Shown: piece after piece, positions 5,074 through 9,523 of the stretch
Layout of the letters: each line of letters opens with the position of its first letter
Numbering within the stretch: position 1 is the first letter of the stretch
Source: Escherichia coli
GTDB lineage: Bacteria > Pseudomonadota > Gammaproteobacteria > Enterobacterales > Enterobacteriaceae
DNA: 64,000 nucleotides
Assembly (NCBI RefSeq): GCF_044324785.1
Contig: NZ_CP172127.1
Strand: one strand, 5' to 3'
Program-made: the position numbers and the translations under genes
Notes under the pieces: generated by a model
The model's database searches: none
The model's input: the letters and a program-made list of their open reading frames with translations, nothing else
Told to the model about the DNA's origin: nothing

Positions 5074-6021
5074 ATGCGTGTGTTACTGGCTCCGATGGAG
5101 GGTGTGCTTGACTCTCTGGTGCGTGAATTGCTGACCGAAGTTAACGACTACGATCTGTGCATCACCGAGTTTGTCCGCGTGGTGGATCAACTGCTGCCGG
5201 TAAAAGTCTTTCATCGCATTTGCCCTGAGCTACAAAACGCCAGCCGGACACCATCCGGTACGCTGGTGCGCGTGCAGTTGTTAGGTCAGTTCCCACAATG
5301 GCTGGCAGAGAATGCCGCCCGTGCGGTCGAGTTAGGTTCCTGGGGCGTGGATCTCAATTGCGGCTGCCCGTCGAAAACGGTTAACGGTAGCGGCGGTGGG
5401 GCGACGTTACTCAAAGATCCTGAACTCATCTATCAGGGTGCAAAAGCGATGCGCGAAGCTGTACCGGCGCATTTGCCCGTAAGCGTAAAAGTGCGTCTGG
5501 GCTGGGACAGCGGTGAGAAGAAATTTGAAATCGCCGATGCGGTGCAACAGGCTGGCGCTACGGAGCTGGTGGTGCATGGGCGGACAAAAGAGCAGGGTTA
5601 CCGCGCGGAGCATATTGACTGGCAGGCGATTGGCGAGATTCGCCAGCGGCTGAATATTCCGGTGATTGCCAACGGTGAAATCTGGGACTGGCAGAGTGCG
5701 CAACAATGCATGGCGATCAGCGGCTGTGACGCAGTGATGATTGGTCGCGGGGCGCTCAATATTCCCAACCTGAGCCGGGTGGTAAAATATAACGAACCGC
5801 GAATGCCGTGGCCGGAGGTGGTTGCTTTGCTGCAAAAATATACCCGTCTGGAAAAGCAGGGCGATACCGGGTTATATCACGTTGCGCGGATTAAACAGTG
5901 GTTGAGTTATTTGCGTAAAGAATACGATGAAGCAACGGAATTATTTCAGCATGTTCGGGTGTTGAATAATTCCCCTGATATTGCAAGGGCTATTCAGGCA
6001 ATTGATATCGAGAAACTCTAA
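5074..6021 (+). CDS. dusC: tRNA-dihydrouridine(16) synthase DusC
   Basis: 315 aa from internal ATG ([13 protein letters not shown]...) matches K-12 DusC N-terminus; ORF track extends 16 codons upstream. Confidence 0.9.
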
Positions 6022-6252
6022 AAAACCATAGTGATGTTTTTTGACAATGTGTTAGCTCTTTATCAATAGGCCGCACGGTTGTTTGGTGGCGTCAAAATCG
6101 CCGAGGCGTTCCCTGAAGGCCGGGGCAGCCCACATGGATGTGGGCTGAGGGCGCGTTTTACAGGGATAATGAGATGGACGCTCCAGATTTTACGGTATCA
6201 AAGTACCAGACTGGATCGTTGCAATACGTCCTGAAAAATTAGGAGCGTCCAC

Positions 6253-7278
6253 ATGAAAGTATCAACTCTTGGTATCGACCTGGCAAAGAACGTTTTTCAG
6301 CTTCATGGTGTCGATCATGAAGGCCATACTATTTTGCGTAAAAAACTCACCCGGGCTAAGTTTGTTCAGTTTGTGATTCAACTGGAACCTTGTCTGATTG
6401 GCATGGAAGCCTGCTCATCCAGTCATTATTTTGCGCGATTATTCACCCGCTATGGTCATGAGGTAAAACTCATACCTCCGCAGTATGTGAAGCCTTATGT
6501 GAAAACGAACAAGACGGATGCAGCAGATGCTGAAGCAATCTGCGAAGCGGTAACCCGTCCGAATATGCGTTTTGTTCAGATAAAAACCGAAGAGCAGCAG
6601 GCCGTTTTAGCGTTACACACTGAACGGGGAATACTTATCCGTGAGCGGATTGCCTGTGCCAATAGTTTAAGAGCCACACTTGCTGAGTTTGGTATTACGA
6701 TTGCGGCCGGACAAAGCCATTTAACCCGTGAGCTGCCAGCCATTCTGGAGGATGGCGAAAATGGTTTATCTCCCTTTGTCAGAACCAGCATCTACAGACA
6801 GTCTAAACATATCCGGGAACTTGAAGAACAAGTTAAACAGGTAGAAGAAGCTCTGGCCTCCTGGTATAGAACGCAGGAAGCCTGCCAGAGAATGGCCAAA
6901 ATCCCGGGGGTTGGCATGCTAACGGCCACTTATGTGGTAGCAGCAGTGGGTAATGCCCGACAATTCAGTACCGCAAAGCAGTTCGCTTCATGGCTGGGGC
7001 TGACACCAAAGGAACATTCCAGCGGCGGGAAACAGCAACTGGGAGGGATCAGCAAACGTGGAGATGGATATTTCCGATACCTGCTGGTTCACGGCGCACG
7101 CGCACTTACCGCCTGGGTCAACCGAAACGGCGCGGTTGAGGAGAATTCCTGGCTTCAGGGACTCCTTGAGCGGAAGCACTACAATGTAGCTGTTGTCGCC
7201 ATGGCGGCAAAAACAGCGAGGATCATGTGGTCAATGTTGTCACACAATACTGAATATCAACCTCGGCAGCTCGCCTGA
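6253..7278 (+). CDS. IS110-family DEDD transposase/recombinase
   Basis: 341-aa ORF, N-terminal LGIDLAK RuvC-like motif, strong similarity in pattern to IS4321/IS5075-type transposases. Confidence 0.9.
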   Translation: MKVSTLGIDLAKNVFQLHGVDHEGHTILRKKLTRAKFVQFVIQLEPCLIGMEACSSSHYFARLFTRYGHEVKLIPPQYVKPYVKTNKTDAADAEAICEAVTRPNMRFVQIKTEEQQAVLALHTERGILIRERIACANSLRATLAEFGITIAAGQSHLTRELPAILEDGENGLSPFVRTSIYRQSKHIRELEEQVKQVEEALASWYRTQEACQRMAKIPGVGMLTATYVVAAVGNARQFSTAKQFASWLGLTPKEHSSGGKQQLGGISKRGDGYFRYLLVHGARALTAWVNRNGAVEENSWLQGLLERKHYNVAVVAMAAKTARIMWSMLSHNTEYQPRQLA

Positions 7279-7538
7279 CACAAGGTCAGTCAATCTGACG
7301 AGGTGCTGAAAAAAAGTTAACGTCCTGGTAGGTGCAGGTGACTTCAGAAGATGGCAAAACAGGTAAGACCGCAGGCAGGATACACCGAGAGGTAACAAGG
7401 GCAAGTTAGCCCGTAGAGGATGATTGGTACCTGCCTGGCGGATTTCATCATGGTTCGGGATAAAAATCCCATCAGAAACCGGATATATGGCTGCACCTAC
7501 CCGTTTTATTACATAACTGAAGAAAGCATTGCATTCCG
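7279..7538 (+). ncRNA. candidate IS-encoded structured ncRNA (bridge/seek-RNA-like) in 3' non-coding end of the IS
   Basis: 260-nt non-coding stretch between transposase stop and right IR containing 11-bp long-range inverted repeat GGTAGGTGCAG (7327-7337) / CTGCACCTACC (7491-7501). Confidence 0.3.
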
Positions 7539-7779
7539 GGAGCGTCCATATATGTTACCTCGCGCCCGACCCGGTAGCCGTAAGGGATAAGCCGAGGGCA
7601 CCGCGCAGCGGCGATTTTGTTCGCCAGAGCCCGGGGGTGCAGGGGGCGGCGGCGATTGGCCGCCCCCTGCGCGCTCCTTGCGCCAGTGATTATATGAAGC
7701 AATGCACATGACAGGAGCGCAACAGGATGAGAGACTGAAATATTCTCGTTATTTTCGGATCTGATGACATTAATTAATT

Positions 7780-7863
7780 TTAAAATATCATCTTAAATAC
7801 GCCAGTCACCACCAGTAGCCCAATCAGGAAAATAATCAATACAGCCCAGAGTATAATTTTCAT
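7780..7863 (-). CDS. yohP: small membrane protein YohP (27 aa)
   Basis: Manual translation of minus strand gives MKIILWAVLIIFLIGLLVVTGVFKMIF; below ORF-track length cut-off. Confidence 0.85.
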   Translation of the reverse strand: MKIILWAVLIIFLIGLLVVTGVFKMIF

Positions 7864-8086
7864 TGGCGTTCCTTTATTTGTGAGTGCTGAATAAGTATAG
7901 GAAAAAACGAAGTCCTTTGCCGTTATCCATAAACGATTAAGATAAATCGGAAGATATCATTCACTTAGTGTATATTTTTCTGGATATGTCATATTATTGC
8001 CACTGATGTTTTGCCACGCGAAACTAAAAAATATATCGCAACACACGGTAATCTCCGCGCACCTTTTCTTACCTGATTATTCCCCC

Positions 8087-9523
8087 ATGAATCGTGATTC
8101 CTTTTATCCCGCCATCGCCTGTTTTCCGCTGTTACTGATGCTGGCCGGGTGTGCGCCTATGCATGAAACCCGCCAGGCGTTAAGCCAGCAAACGCCTGCT
8201 GCACAAGTTGACACCGCATTACCCACGGCGCTGAAAAATGGTTGGCCAGACAGCCAATGGTGGCTGGAGTATCACGATAATCAGCTCACTTCCTTAATTA
8301 ACAATGCACTACAGAACGCACCGGATATGCAGGTGGCTGAACAGCGCATTCAGCTAGCTGAAGCCCAGGCGAAGGCAGTTGCTACTCAGGATGGTCCGCA
8401 GATCGACTTTTCTGCGGATATGGAGCGGCAAAAAATGTCGGCAGAAGGGTTAATGGGGCCGTTTGCTCTGAACGATCCTGCCGCAGGTACGACCGGTCCG
8501 TGGTACACCAACGGTACTTTTGGCTTAACGGCGGGCTGGCATCTCGATATCTGGGGAAAGAATCGGGCGGAGGTAACTGCTCGCCTGGGTACGGTTAAAG
8601 CACGAGCGGCGGAACGCGAGCAAACCCGCCAATTGCTGGCTGGCAGCGTAGCCCGCCTGTACTGGGAGTGGCAAACCCAGGCGGCGTTAAACACTGTCTT
8701 ACAGCAAATCGAAAAAGAGCAGAACACCATTATCGCCACCGATCGCCAGCTATATCAGAACGGGATTACTTCTTCAGTTGAAGGTGTGGAAACCGATATT
8801 AATGCCAGCAAAACCCGGCAGCAGCTCAACGATGTCGCGGGGAAAATGAAAATTATTGAGGCACGGTTAAGCGCACTTACAAATCACCAGACAAAGTCAC
8901 TGAAGCTTAAACCGGTCGCGTTGCCGAAAGTGGCAAGCCAGCTTCCTGATGAACTGGGGTACTCCTTACTGGCGCGGCGGGCAGATTTGCAGGCGGCGCA
9001 CTGGTACGTTGAGTCATCGTTAAGCACCATTGATGCGGCAAAAGCGGCATTTTATCCTGACATCAACCTGATGGCCTTCCTGCAACAGGATGCGTTGCAC
9101 TTAAGCGATCTGTTCCGTCATTCCGCGCAGCAAATGGGCGTTACGGCAGGCCTGACGCTACCCATTTTCGATAGTGGTCGTCTTAACGCCAATCTCGATA
9201 TCGCAAAAGCCGAAAGCAACTTGTCTATCGCCAGCTACAACAAAGCGGTGGTTGAAGCGGTGAATGACGTGGCGCGGGCAGCCAGTCAGGTTCAGACACT
9301 GGCGGAGAAAAACCAGCATCAGGCGCAAATTGAGCGCGATGCCTTGCGTGTAGTTGGTCTTGCGCAGGCGCGCTTTAACGCGGGCATCATTGCCGGTTCC
9401 CGCGTCAGCGAAGCCAGAATCCCGGCGCTTCGCGAGCGGGCCAATGGCCTGTTATTGCAAGGGCAGTGGCTGGATGCCTCCATTCAACTCACTGGTGCGT
9501 TGGGCGGGGGTTACAAACGCTGA
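8087..9523 (+). CDS. mdtQ: outer-membrane efflux channel (TolC/OprM family) MdtQ, intact
   Basis: 478 aa from ATG at 8087 (MNRDSFYPAIACFPLLLMLAGC lipobox); uninterrupted reading frame. Confidence 0.85.
   Translation: MNRDSFYPAIACFPLLLMLAGCAPMHETRQALSQQTPAAQVDTALPTALKNGWPDSQWWLEYHDNQLTSLINNALQNAPDMQVAEQRIQLAEAQAKAVATQDGPQIDFSADMERQKMSAEGLMGPFALNDPAAGTTGPWYTNGTFGLTAGWHLDIWGKNRAEVTARLGTVKARAAEREQTRQLLAGSVARLYWEWQTQAALNTVLQQIEKEQNTIIATDRQLYQNGITSSVEGVETDINASKTRQQLNDVAGKMKIIEARLSALTNHQTKSLKLKPVALPKVASQLPDELGYSLLARRADLQAAHWYVESSLSTIDAAKAAFYPDINLMAFLQQDALHLSDLFRHSAQQMGVTAGLTLPIFDSGRLNANLDIAKAESNLSIASYNKAVVEAVNDVARAASQVQTLAEKNQHQAQIERDALRVVGLAQARFNAGIIAGSRVSEARIPALRERANGLLLQGQWLDASIQLTGALGGGYKR

What the first reader, a model, noticed from the sequence alone, without database searches (positions are those of the whole stretch)
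7279..7538. Candidate structured ncRNA (bridge/seek-RNA-like) in the 3' non-coding end of the IS
The 260 nt between the transposase stop and the right inverted repeat contain no plausible ORF but do contain an 11-bp long-range inverted repeat (GGTAGGTGCAG 7327-7337 / CTGCACCTACC 7491-7501) enclosing ~150 nt. IS110-family recombinases are guided by an element-encoded RNA, located downstream of the recombinase in the IS1111 subgroup.
Basis: inference. Interest (0 to 1): 0.55.

Follow-up and report, generated by a model that had tools for sequence, protein, structure and literature searches.

The report
Guide RNA gene of insertion sequence ISEc81
The non-coding 3' end of this E. coli jumping gene (ISEc81) encodes the structured guide RNA (bridge/seekRNA) that IS1111-type transposases use to find their insertion site; this is real but an expected, already catalogued feature.

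Summary
The 11-bp inverted repeat (7327-7337 / 7491-7501) is real. It is the outer closing helix of a ~175-nt plus-strand RNA domain lying between the transposase stop (7278) and the right subterminal inverted repeat (7539-7549).

An empty-site comparison places the element at 6168-7553, with an AT core. It is ISEc81 (4 aa differences), an IS1111-group member of the IS110 family.

The 3' non-coding regions of 16 relatives (40-97% transposase identity) align with it. They share eight helices: 94.8% of cells are paired and 25 of 40 pairs show compensatory changes.

Four single-stranded segments track each element's own DNA:
- 7389-7397 is complementary to the right target flank.
- 7418-7422 is identical to the left target plus core; this match is weak here.
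- 7442-7448 is complementary to the left IS end.
- 7483-7488 is identical to the right IS end.

Permutation tests gave 0-4 of 20000. A model built from these sequences also finds the RNA in IS4321 and IS5075, whose guides match their known Tn21-repeat target.

Durrant et al. 2024 already list a right-end bridge RNA for ISEc81. Expression was not tested. Already known; low interest.

The parts
6168..7553 (+). Insertion sequence ISEc81 (isoform), 1386 bp, IS1111 group of the IS110 family. The AT at 6166-6167 and at 7552-7553 is the shared core dinucleotide.
   Evidence: Empty-site alignment with CP137936. The protein differs at 4 residues from ISEc81 in the Siddiquee 2024 supplement.
6174..6184 (+). 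Left subterminal inverted repeat ATGGACGCTCC, preceded by the 6-nt extension AATGAG (6168-6173).
   Evidence: pair I6, 11/11 complementary with 7539-7549. Conserved in relatives.
6253..7278 (+). DEDD transposase gene (341 aa).
   Evidence: NCBIfam NF033542 'IS110 family RNA-guided transposase', E 2.6e-107.
7327..7501 (+).
   Evidence: Model R1 gives a single hit in the window, 7322-7504, 139 bits.
7350..7354 (+). Helix Px, 5' strand GAUGG. It pairs with 7445-7449 UCAUC and resembles the left-end top strand.
   Evidence: Compensatory variants: GAUAA/UUAUC, UAUGG/CCAUA and AAUGG/CCAUU.
7369..7441 (+). Target-binding module. Stem P2 (7369-7379 / 7430-7441, one bulge) plus P2b (7384-7386 / 7426-7428) enclose guide, hairpin P3 (7399-7402 / 7409-7412), then guide.
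   Evidence: All 8 consensus P2 pairs have compensatory changes. MFE folds agree.
7389..7397 (+). Right-target guide GAGGUAACA. It is complementary to the top strand at 7553-7561 (T of the core plus GTTACCTC).
   Evidence: pair I9. Family-wide permutation test 0/20000. The same right flank is present at an independent plasmid insertion.
7414..7422 (+). Left-target guide region UAGAGGAUG. Only GGAUG (7418-7422) is identical to the uninterrupted target GGAT|G; with one bulged G, 7 of 8 nt match TACAGGGAT.
   Evidence: Family-wide permutation test 0/20000. The match in this copy is only 4-5 nt.
7442..7448 (+). Right-donor guide AUUUCAU. It is complementary to left-end positions 2-8 (6169-6175, ATGAGAT) with one G.U pair, and it overlaps the 3' strand of Px.
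   Evidence: Covaries with the left-end extension in relatives: UGUCAU/AATGAC, UUUCAU/AATGAA, UUCCAU/AATGGA, UCUUAU/AATAAG. Permutation test 4/20000.
7452..7480 (+). Hairpin P4 (7452-7455 / 7477-7480) with P5 (7457-7461 / 7466-7470), between the two donor guides.
   Evidence: 7 of 9 pairs show compensatory changes.
7483..7488 (+). Left-donor guide AUAUAU, identical to the right IS end plus core at 7548-7553.
   Evidence: 6/6 identity in 13 of the 14 loci tested and 5/6 in L007, where the end is masked by N. Also matches in IS4321 and L042 and in L016, L035 and L011. Variants seen: ATACAA, ATATAG, ATACAC, ATATAA, ATAGAT, ATCTAT, ATACAT. Permutation test 0/20000.
7529..7534 (+). TTGCAT, a candidate -35 of the junction promoter. 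In the excised circle it lies 16 nt upstream of TATAAT, formed from 7551-7553 plus 6168-6170.
   Evidence: Read directly from the sequence. No plus-strand sigma-70-like site lies inside the linear element. The analogy is with ISEc11 (PMC11187229).
7539..7549 (+). Right subterminal inverted repeat GGAGCGTCCAT, followed by ATAT (7550-7553).
   Evidence: pair I6.
6160..6167 (+). Left half of the target (ACAGGG plus core AT).
   Evidence: Empty site.
7554..7561 (+). Right half of the target (GTTACCTC).
   Evidence: Empty site. Identical at the plasmid insertion L037.

Best explanation
Region 7327-7501 (+) encodes the bridge RNA (seekRNA) of ISEc81, an IS1111-group element.

Inferred expression: the RNA is made as the 3' part of the transposase transcript, most strongly from a promoter assembled when the excised element circularises (TTGCAT-16-TATAAT across the RE-LE junction). 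It is then probably trimmed and bound by the DEDD transposase.

Shown by comparison: the RNA has two modules of the form 'guide - hairpin - guide'.
- Target module (closed by P2, 7369-7441). GAGGUAACA pairs with the top strand of the right target half. The 3' side (..GGAUG) pairs with the bottom strand of the left half plus core.
- Donor module (in the multiloop closed by P1). AUUUCAU pairs with the top strand of the left IS end. AUAUAU pairs with the bottom strand of the right IS end plus core.

Inferred mechanism: by holding target and circle junction side by side, the RNA lets the transposase exchange strands at the AT core. The element then lands at ...GGGAT|GTTACCTC..., in the loop of a hairpin in a ~165-bp palindromic chromosomal repeat. 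The guide order (top-strand guide 5', bottom-strand guide 3') is the IS1111 order, the reverse of IS621.
For: - Boundaries and core come from an empty site. Subterminal inverted repeats are present. The protein is an IS110 family RNA-guided transposase, identified as ISEc81.
- Structure: the MAFFT alignment has 17 sequences, 40 pairs and 8 helices. 94.8% of cells are paired against 45% or less when partners are slid. 25 pairs have compensatory changes against 11 or fewer when slid. No shuffle of 500 reached the observed values on any measure.
- Strand: 39 G.U cells against 7 A.C cells, which points to a plus-strand RNA.
- Guides: each RNA segment matches its own element's flank or end better than those of other elements. 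RTG 0/20000, LTG 0/20000, RDG 4/20000, LDG 0/20000 permutations.
- In the window, the RTG match is 9/9 (I9). The same GTTACCTC right flank occurs at an unrelated plasmid insertion.
- Untrained validation: model R1 hits directly downstream of tnp in IS4321, IS5075, IS5708, L042, L035, L011 and L016. In IS4321, the RTG AAAACGGAA is the reverse complement of the Tn21-repeat right flank and the LDG ATAGAT equals its right end.
- Literature: seekRNA in the 3' NCR with the top-strand match 5' of the bottom-strand match (PMC11187229). Bridge RNA predicted in the RE of 93% of IS1111 elements, with ISEc81 listed as 'RE' (PMC11208160).
Against: - There is no expression, processing or binding evidence for this RNA. 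The 5' and 3' ends are unknown.
- The left-target guide matches this copy's left flank over only 4-5 contiguous nt. The plasmid site has a different left flank. Left-side recognition is therefore loose, or these sites are sub-optimal.
- The right-donor guide overlaps helix Px, so it may not be free in the unbound RNA.
- The core dinucleotide on the left and right junctions differs in several relatives (table), so the exact register of crossover in the family is not settled.
- There was no hit in Rfam 15, and the published bridge-RNA models could not be run.
Confidence: 0.9

Rival explanations
1. The conserved inverted repeats act only at the DNA level, as transposase-binding or end-recognition sites in a long right end. 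No functional RNA is made.
For: The region lies next to the right subterminal inverted repeat, and several motifs resemble the IS ends, for example GGATATAT against CCATATAT. Transcription was not tested.
Against: The helices keep pairing through G.U wobble on the plus strand only: 39 G.U against 7 A.C cells. That asymmetry is meaningless for double-stranded DNA sites. Segments covary with the target flanks, which differ in every element, and a fixed protein-binding site would not do that. In the related ISEc11, ISPa11 and ISKpn4, the NCR RNA co-purifies with the transposase and works in trans (PMC11187229).
Confidence: 0.03
2. It is a structured 3' UTR or terminator that stabilises or ends the transposase mRNA, without any guide function.
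For: It lies directly after the stop codon and folds more stably than shuffles (z -2.9 and -2.3).
Against: No terminator-like site (GC stem plus T run) is found. A stabiliser would not need four single-stranded segments that covary with the element's own ends and flanks.
Confidence: 0.03
3. The RNA gene is genuine but this copy is a decaying or inactive one. Its left-target guide no longer matches its site, so it no longer moves efficiently.
For: The LTG matches only GGAUG. The Kluyvera copies carry two mismatches in P1, and one has a deletion in P3. Several E. coli copies are interrupted by an IS3-family element (H18-H25).
Against: The transposase ORF is intact and 98.8% identical to the ISEc81 reference. 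About 175 of 5426 complete E. coli genomes carry full copies at more than one locus and on plasmids, which indicates recent movement. All helices are intact in the window copy.
Confidence: 0.1
4. The 11-bp inverted repeat is a chance match in non-coding DNA.
For: Short repeats occur by chance. One of 300 shuffles reached 11 nt.
Against: The helix is conserved, with compensatory changes, in relatives down to 40% protein identity.
Confidence: 0.01

Closest known systems
seekRNA of IS1111-family elements ISEc11, ISPa11, ISKpn4 and ISPst6 (Siddiquee et al. 2024, PMC11187229)
   Same: It is encoded in the long NCR downstream of tnp, inside an element with subterminal inverted repeats. The top-strand target match lies 5' of the bottom-strand match, the two flank a small hairpin, and they overlap at the insertion point. 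A junction promoter is formed on circularisation. The target sits in a potentially folded repeat, as for ISPa11 (REP) and ISKpn4 (attC). Domain sizes are similar: about 73-100 nt for the target module and about 175 nt for the whole domain, against reported 82-96 nt short and 154 nt long forms.
   Different: It is a different element, with about 40% transposase identity or less to those tested, and a different target. There is no experimental evidence here. The donor-end guides described in this report were not described in that paper.
IS621 bridge RNA (IS110 group; Durrant et al. 2024 PMC11208160; Hiraizumi et al. 2024 PMC11208158)
   Same: Both are bispecific RNAs with one module for the target and one for the donor (the circle junction). 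One guide pairs with the bottom strand of the left half and one with the top strand of the right half, and recombination occurs at a 2-nt core. Both work with a DEDD/RuvC-Tnp recombinase.
   Different: The IS621 RNA lies upstream of tnp, in the left end. The order of guides within each loop is reversed here. The donor guides sit in a three-way multiloop rather than a simple internal loop. The subterminal repeats are long (11 bp) rather than 2-3 bp. The core is AT rather than CT.
IS4321 / IS5075 (same transposase cluster as ISEc81 in Durrant Supplementary data; target is the 38-bp terminal repeat of Tn21-family transposons)
   Same: The model built without them finds the same RNA architecture directly after their tnp (52.8-53.5 bits, E about 1e-13). 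Their guides match their known target and ends in the same alignment columns. The left-end extension AATGAG is the same.
   Different: About 40% protein identity. A different target and different guide sequences.

Membership tests
IS1111-group bridge RNA / seekRNA | Encoded on the transposase strand in the long non-coding region downstream of a DEDD (IS110-family) transposase, inside the element's boundaries. | tested here: met
   tnp is 6253-7278 (NF033542). The IS end is at 7553 by the empty site. The RNA domain is 7327-7501.
IS1111-group bridge RNA / seekRNA | The element has subterminal inverted repeats of 7-17 bp with short terminal extensions, and makes no target duplication beyond the shared core. 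| tested here: met
   11-bp sTIR at 6174-6184 / 7539-7549. Extensions are AATGAG and AT(AT). The empty site shows only the AT core on both sides.
IS1111-group bridge RNA / seekRNA | Secondary structure conserved among relatives, with compensatory base changes. | tested here: met
   25 of 40 pairs are compensatory, 94.8% of cells are paired, and both the slid and shuffled controls are far lower.
IS1111-group bridge RNA / seekRNA | Two short segments match the top and the bottom strand of the target, with the top-strand match 5' of the bottom-strand match. | tested here: met
   The top-strand match is 9 nt (7389-7397 against 7553-7561). The bottom-strand match is 5 nt (7418-7422, GGAUG), in the expected order. 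Both are significant across the family. The bottom-strand match is weak in this copy.
IS1111-group bridge RNA / seekRNA | Segments complementary to the donor (the joined RE-LE ends). | tested here: met
   7442-7448 matches the left end and 7483-7488 matches the right end. Covariation across 14 loci gave 4/20000 and 0/20000, and the pattern holds in untrained loci.
IS1111-group bridge RNA / seekRNA | Matches a published bridge-RNA covariance model or an Rfam family. | not testable with these tools
   Rfam 15 gave no relevant hit at E up to 10. The published models are not available here. As a substitute, model R1 finds IS4321 and IS5075, and Durrant's table lists ISEc81 with a bridge RNA in the RE.
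IS1111-group bridge RNA / seekRNA | The RNA is transcribed, co-purifies with the transposase, and is required in cis or trans for circle formation and targeted insertion. | not testable with these tools
   No expression or biochemical data. Only the sequence-level junction promoter TTGCAT-16-TATAAT was found.
IS110-group (IS621-type) bridge RNA | Encoded in the left end, upstream of the recombinase gene. | tested here: not met
   The left NCR is only 85 nt (6168-6252). The RNA lies downstream of tnp.
IS110-group (IS621-type) bridge RNA | Within each loop, the bottom-strand (left) guide lies 5' of the top-strand (right) guide. | tested here: not met
   The order is reversed in both modules. The IS621 definition comes from PMC11208158.

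The most novel reading that the evidence does not exclude
Helix Px (7350-7354 GAUGG with 7445-7449 UCAUC) covaries in the family and overlaps the right-donor guide. Its 5' strand looks like the top strand of the left IS end (AATGR). The RNA may therefore carry a built-in decoy of its own donor end. This decoy would mask the donor guide until real donor DNA displaces it, a toehold-like switch ordering donor capture.

A related possibility concerns the conserved AAUGAGG after the left-target guide, which repeats the first bases of the left end. It might act as a bottom-strand 'handshake' guide for the post-exchange left junction.
Probability: 0.15. Interest if true: 0.45.

Novelty: already known. 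Interest (0 to 1): 0.2.

Why it matters
It confirms that a tool-free reading of raw sequence correctly picked out a guide-RNA gene. It also gives a base-by-base map (helices, four guides, core, junction promoter) for ISEc81 and its relatives, including the clinically common IS4321 and IS5075. That map could be used to predict or reprogram their insertion sites.

Biologically it adds nothing unexpected. RNA-guided targeting by IS1111-type elements was established in 2024. ISEc81 is already listed with a right-end bridge RNA, and NCBI already names the protein an RNA-guided transposase.

Tried and rejected
- **Rfam 15 scan of 5500-8500 at E up to 10.** It returned only sub-threshold chance hits (AgvB, miRNA and snoRNA models) and nothing for bridge RNA.
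- **First reading of the donor guides.** I took AGAUGG (7349-7354) and AUAUAUGG (7483-7490, complementary to CCATATAT, I4) as donor guides in the opposite strand sense. I rejected this for two reasons. ATATAT is palindromic in this element. In relatives, the segment is identical, not complementary, to the right end: ATACAA, ATATAG, ATACAC.
- **GGGAU in the P5 hairpin (7457-7461) as left-target guide.** Rejected because it is a helix strand with compensatory changes.
- **Searching the papers' supplements for the RNA sequence.** This found nothing. Only the protein and the element name were found.
- **The K-12 record around dusC.** It carries no repeat annotation that would name the ~165-bp target repeat.
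- **ISPpu9/Ssr9 (PMC12288879).** I looked at it as a possible analogue of a 3' sRNA, but it is a different arrangement: an IS110-type element with a hitch-hiking sRNA.
- **IS5708 (L043).** The RNA is found, but I could not place its ends convincingly, so it was left out of the guide tests.

Full report
**Observation**

In 300 shuffles of 7279-7538, only one reached 11 nt. The transposase ORF ends at 7278 and the right subterminal inverted repeat begins at 7539. The 260-nt non-coding stretch is therefore as described.

**The element**

- The window is E. coli chromosome, downstream of dusC.
- An uninterrupted copy of the site (CP137936, L001) reads ...TTTTACAGGGAT|GTTACCTCGCGCCC.... The element is therefore 6168-7553 (1386 bp), and an AT dinucleotide is present at both junctions (6166-6167 and 7552-7553).
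- It has 11-bp subterminal inverted repeats, ATGGACGCTCC 6174-6184 and GGAGCGTCCAT 7539-7549 (I6).
- The 341-aa protein scores 359 bits on NF033542, 'IS110 family RNA-guided transposase'.
- The protein differs at four residues from the ISEc81 transposase printed in the supplement of Siddiquee et al. 2024.
- Full copies occur in about 175 of 5426 complete E. coli genomes. They are found at this site, at ybaP-copA and on plasmids.

**Structure**

A scan of one genome per species returned 34 loci encoding relatives at 40-97% identity. Their 3' non-coding regions align with the window despite the divergence. RNAalifold on the 17-sequence MAFFT alignment predicts 40 pairs in eight helices, and 25 pairs have compensatory double changes.

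On the same alignment:

| Measure | Observed | When 3' partners are slid |
|---|---|---|
| Cells forming a standard pair | 94.8% | 32-45% |
| Pairs with compensatory change | 25 | 7-11 |

No shuffle of 500 reached the observed values. G.U cells outnumber A.C cells 39 to 7, so the pairing makes sense only for a plus-strand RNA.

Helices in window coordinates:

| Helix | 5' strand | 3' strand |
|---|---|---|
| P1 | 7327-7337 | 7491-7501 |
| Px | 7350-7354 | 7445-7449 |
| P2 (one bulge) | 7369-7379 | 7430-7441 |
| P2b | 7384-7386 | 7426-7428 |
| P3 | 7399-7402 | 7409-7412 |
| P4 | 7452-7455 | 7477-7480 |
| P5 | 7457-7461 | 7466-7470 |

These come, with P3 corrected by eye. The eighth consensus helix is an invariant 3-bp hairpin (7362-7364 / 7368-7370). 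It never varies in the alignment, so it is neither supported nor contradicted by covariation, and its 3' strand overlaps the extended P2 given in the table.

**Guides**

Four single-stranded segments vary between elements, in step with each element's own DNA.

1. *5' side of the P2 loop.* GAGGUAACA (7389-7397) is the exact reverse complement of 7553-7561, which is the last core base plus the right flank GTTACCTC (I9).
2. *3' side of the same loop, after hairpin P3.* UAGAGGAUG (7414-7422) is identical to the uninterrupted target only over GGATG. With one bulged G it matches TACAGGGAT at 7 of 8 positions.
3. *Directly after P2.* AUUUCAU (7442-7448) is complementary to left-end positions 2-8 (6169-6175), with one G.U pair.
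4. *Directly before the 3' arm of P1.* AUAUAU (7483-7488) is identical to the right end plus core (7548-7553).

I compared each RNA segment with flanks and ends across 14 non-redundant loci, own against others:

| Guide | Permutations reaching the observed sum |
|---|---|
| Right-target guide | 0 of 20000 |
| Left-target guide | 0 of 20000 |
| Right-donor guide | 4 of 20000 |
| Left-donor guide | 0 of 20000 |

The left-donor guide equals the right end in all six letters in 13 of the 14 loci and in five of six in L007, whose end is masked by N. Variants include ATACAA, ATATAG, ATACAC and ATATAA.

An independent plasmid insertion of the same IS (L037) has the same right flank, GTTACCTC, but a different left flank, CCGGAAT. 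This fits a strong right guide and a loose left guide.

**Validation outside the training set**

I built a covariance model from the alignment (R1).

- It gives one hit in the 64-kb window, 7322-7504 at 139 bits.
- It gives hits directly downstream of tnp in loci that were not used to build it: L035, L011, L016 and L025.
- It also hits a 52%-identical plasmid element (L042), IS5708, IS4321 and IS5075.

In IS4321, the predicted right-target guide AAAACGGAA is the reverse complement of the Tn21-type terminal-repeat sequence TTCCGTTTT immediately right of the insertion. The left-target guide UAUUUUC equals the uninterrupted target. The left-donor guide AUAGAU equals its right end.

In L042 all four guides match: 8, 10, 7 and 6 nt.

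**Mechanism**

*Shown by comparison:* this is a structured plus-strand RNA domain with a target module and a donor module. Each module is arranged as guide, hairpin, guide.

*Taken from the literature on related elements:*
- The RNA binds the DEDD transposase and is needed, in cis or in trans, for circle formation and targeted insertion (PMC11187229).
- In IS621, the left guides pair with the bottom strand, the right guides pair with the top strand, and strands are exchanged at a 2-nt core (PMC11208158).

The window's arrangement has the same strand logic, but with the right (top-strand) guide 5' of the left (bottom-strand) guide in both modules. That is the order Siddiquee et al. reported for the target matches of IS1111 members. 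The donor guides lie in the three-way multiloop formed by P1, P2 and P4, as Durrant et al. remarked for many IS1111 orthologues.

*Inferred from sequence:*
- No plus-strand sigma-70-like promoter or intrinsic terminator lies inside the linear element.
- Joining the ends creates TTGCAT (7529-7534), a 16-nt spacer, then TATAAT (7551-7553 plus 6168-6170).
- The RNA would then be made with the transposase message from the circle and processed afterwards.

**Target**

The empty site is part of a ~165-bp GC-rich imperfect palindrome found about three times per E. coli genome. As single-stranded DNA it folds far better than shuffles (z -4.1). The insertion point lies in the loop of the hairpin GGGCGCG/CGCGCCC. 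This resembles the folded targets (REP, attC) of other IS1111 members.

**What is not shown**

- There is no evidence of transcription, RNA ends, protein binding or activity for this copy.
- The left-target match is weak here.
- Helix Px overlaps the right-donor guide, and its 5' strand resembles the left end. Both Px and the guide-to-left-end match covary. Whether Px masks the guide is open.
- The left and right core dinucleotides differ in several relatives (table), so the exact crossover register in the family is not fixed by these data.

**Novelty**

RNA-guided targeting by IS1111-type elements was published in 2024. ISEc81 is in ISfinder. Durrant et al.'s supplementary table lists 'ISEc81 - RE - IS1111', meaning a bridge RNA predicted in its right end. 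RefSeq already names the protein 'IS110 family RNA-guided transposase'.

The guide map given here is more detailed than what I could find in those papers, but the feature itself is already known. Interest is low: it is a correct call of an expected feature.

Noticed in passing
window 6175-6191 and 6235-6251: A 17-nt inverted repeat (88%) pairs the left subterminal repeat with a third copy of GGAGCGTCCA. That copy contains the transposase Shine-Dalgarno sequence (AGGAG 6241-6245), just before the ATG at 6253. In a transcript this hairpin could hide the ribosome-binding site (I1).
   Followed up: no
window ~6085-6167 plus 7554-7680 (uninterrupted in L001 285-470): The insertion target is a ~165-bp GC-rich imperfect palindromic intergenic repeat, present at a median of 3 places per E. 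coli genome. It is also the ISEc81 site at ybaP-copA and in Kluyvera. As single-stranded DNA it folds with z -4.1, and the insertion point is in a hairpin loop. The K-12 record gives it no name.
   Followed up: partly
L011 ~1560-1669 (Francisellaceae MAG contig CAIJNR010000128): After the RNA, the 27-nt right end GTTGCGAATTCTGGACGGCCCATATAT is repeated head-to-tail at least four times, up to the contig end. This could be an assembly artefact or a tandem array of right ends.
   Followed up: no
E. coli genomes H17-H25: Several ISEc81 copies at this kind of site are interrupted by an IS3-family element (span 2812 bp against 1551 bp). One copy (H17) has about 164 extra bases.
   Followed up: no
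window 7697-7757 (-): A weak, sub-threshold Rfam match to AgvB (anti-GcvB sRNA): 22.9 bits against a gathering score of 56, E 0.26. Probably chance.
   Followed up: no
L032 3568-3673 (-) and L016 133-319 (+): Extra copies of the RNA lie away from the matched transposase gene. L032 has an inverted partial copy at the locus end. In L016 the RNA lies about 1.7 kb upstream of the tnp match, so it presumably belongs to a neighbouring element.
   Followed up: no
window 7639-7650 and 7659-7670: A perfect 12-bp GC-rich palindrome, GCAGGGGGCGGC / GCCGCCCCCTGC, lies inside the flanking repeat, outside the IS (I5).
   Followed up: no
L035 (Xenorhabdus vietnamensis) ~1170-1200: The right-target guide AUUACAUU matches the flank AATGTAAT, but 4 nt further from the IS end than in other loci. 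The sequence there reads ATATAA-ATATAA, suggesting a small duplication at the right junction of a decayed copy.
   Followed up: no
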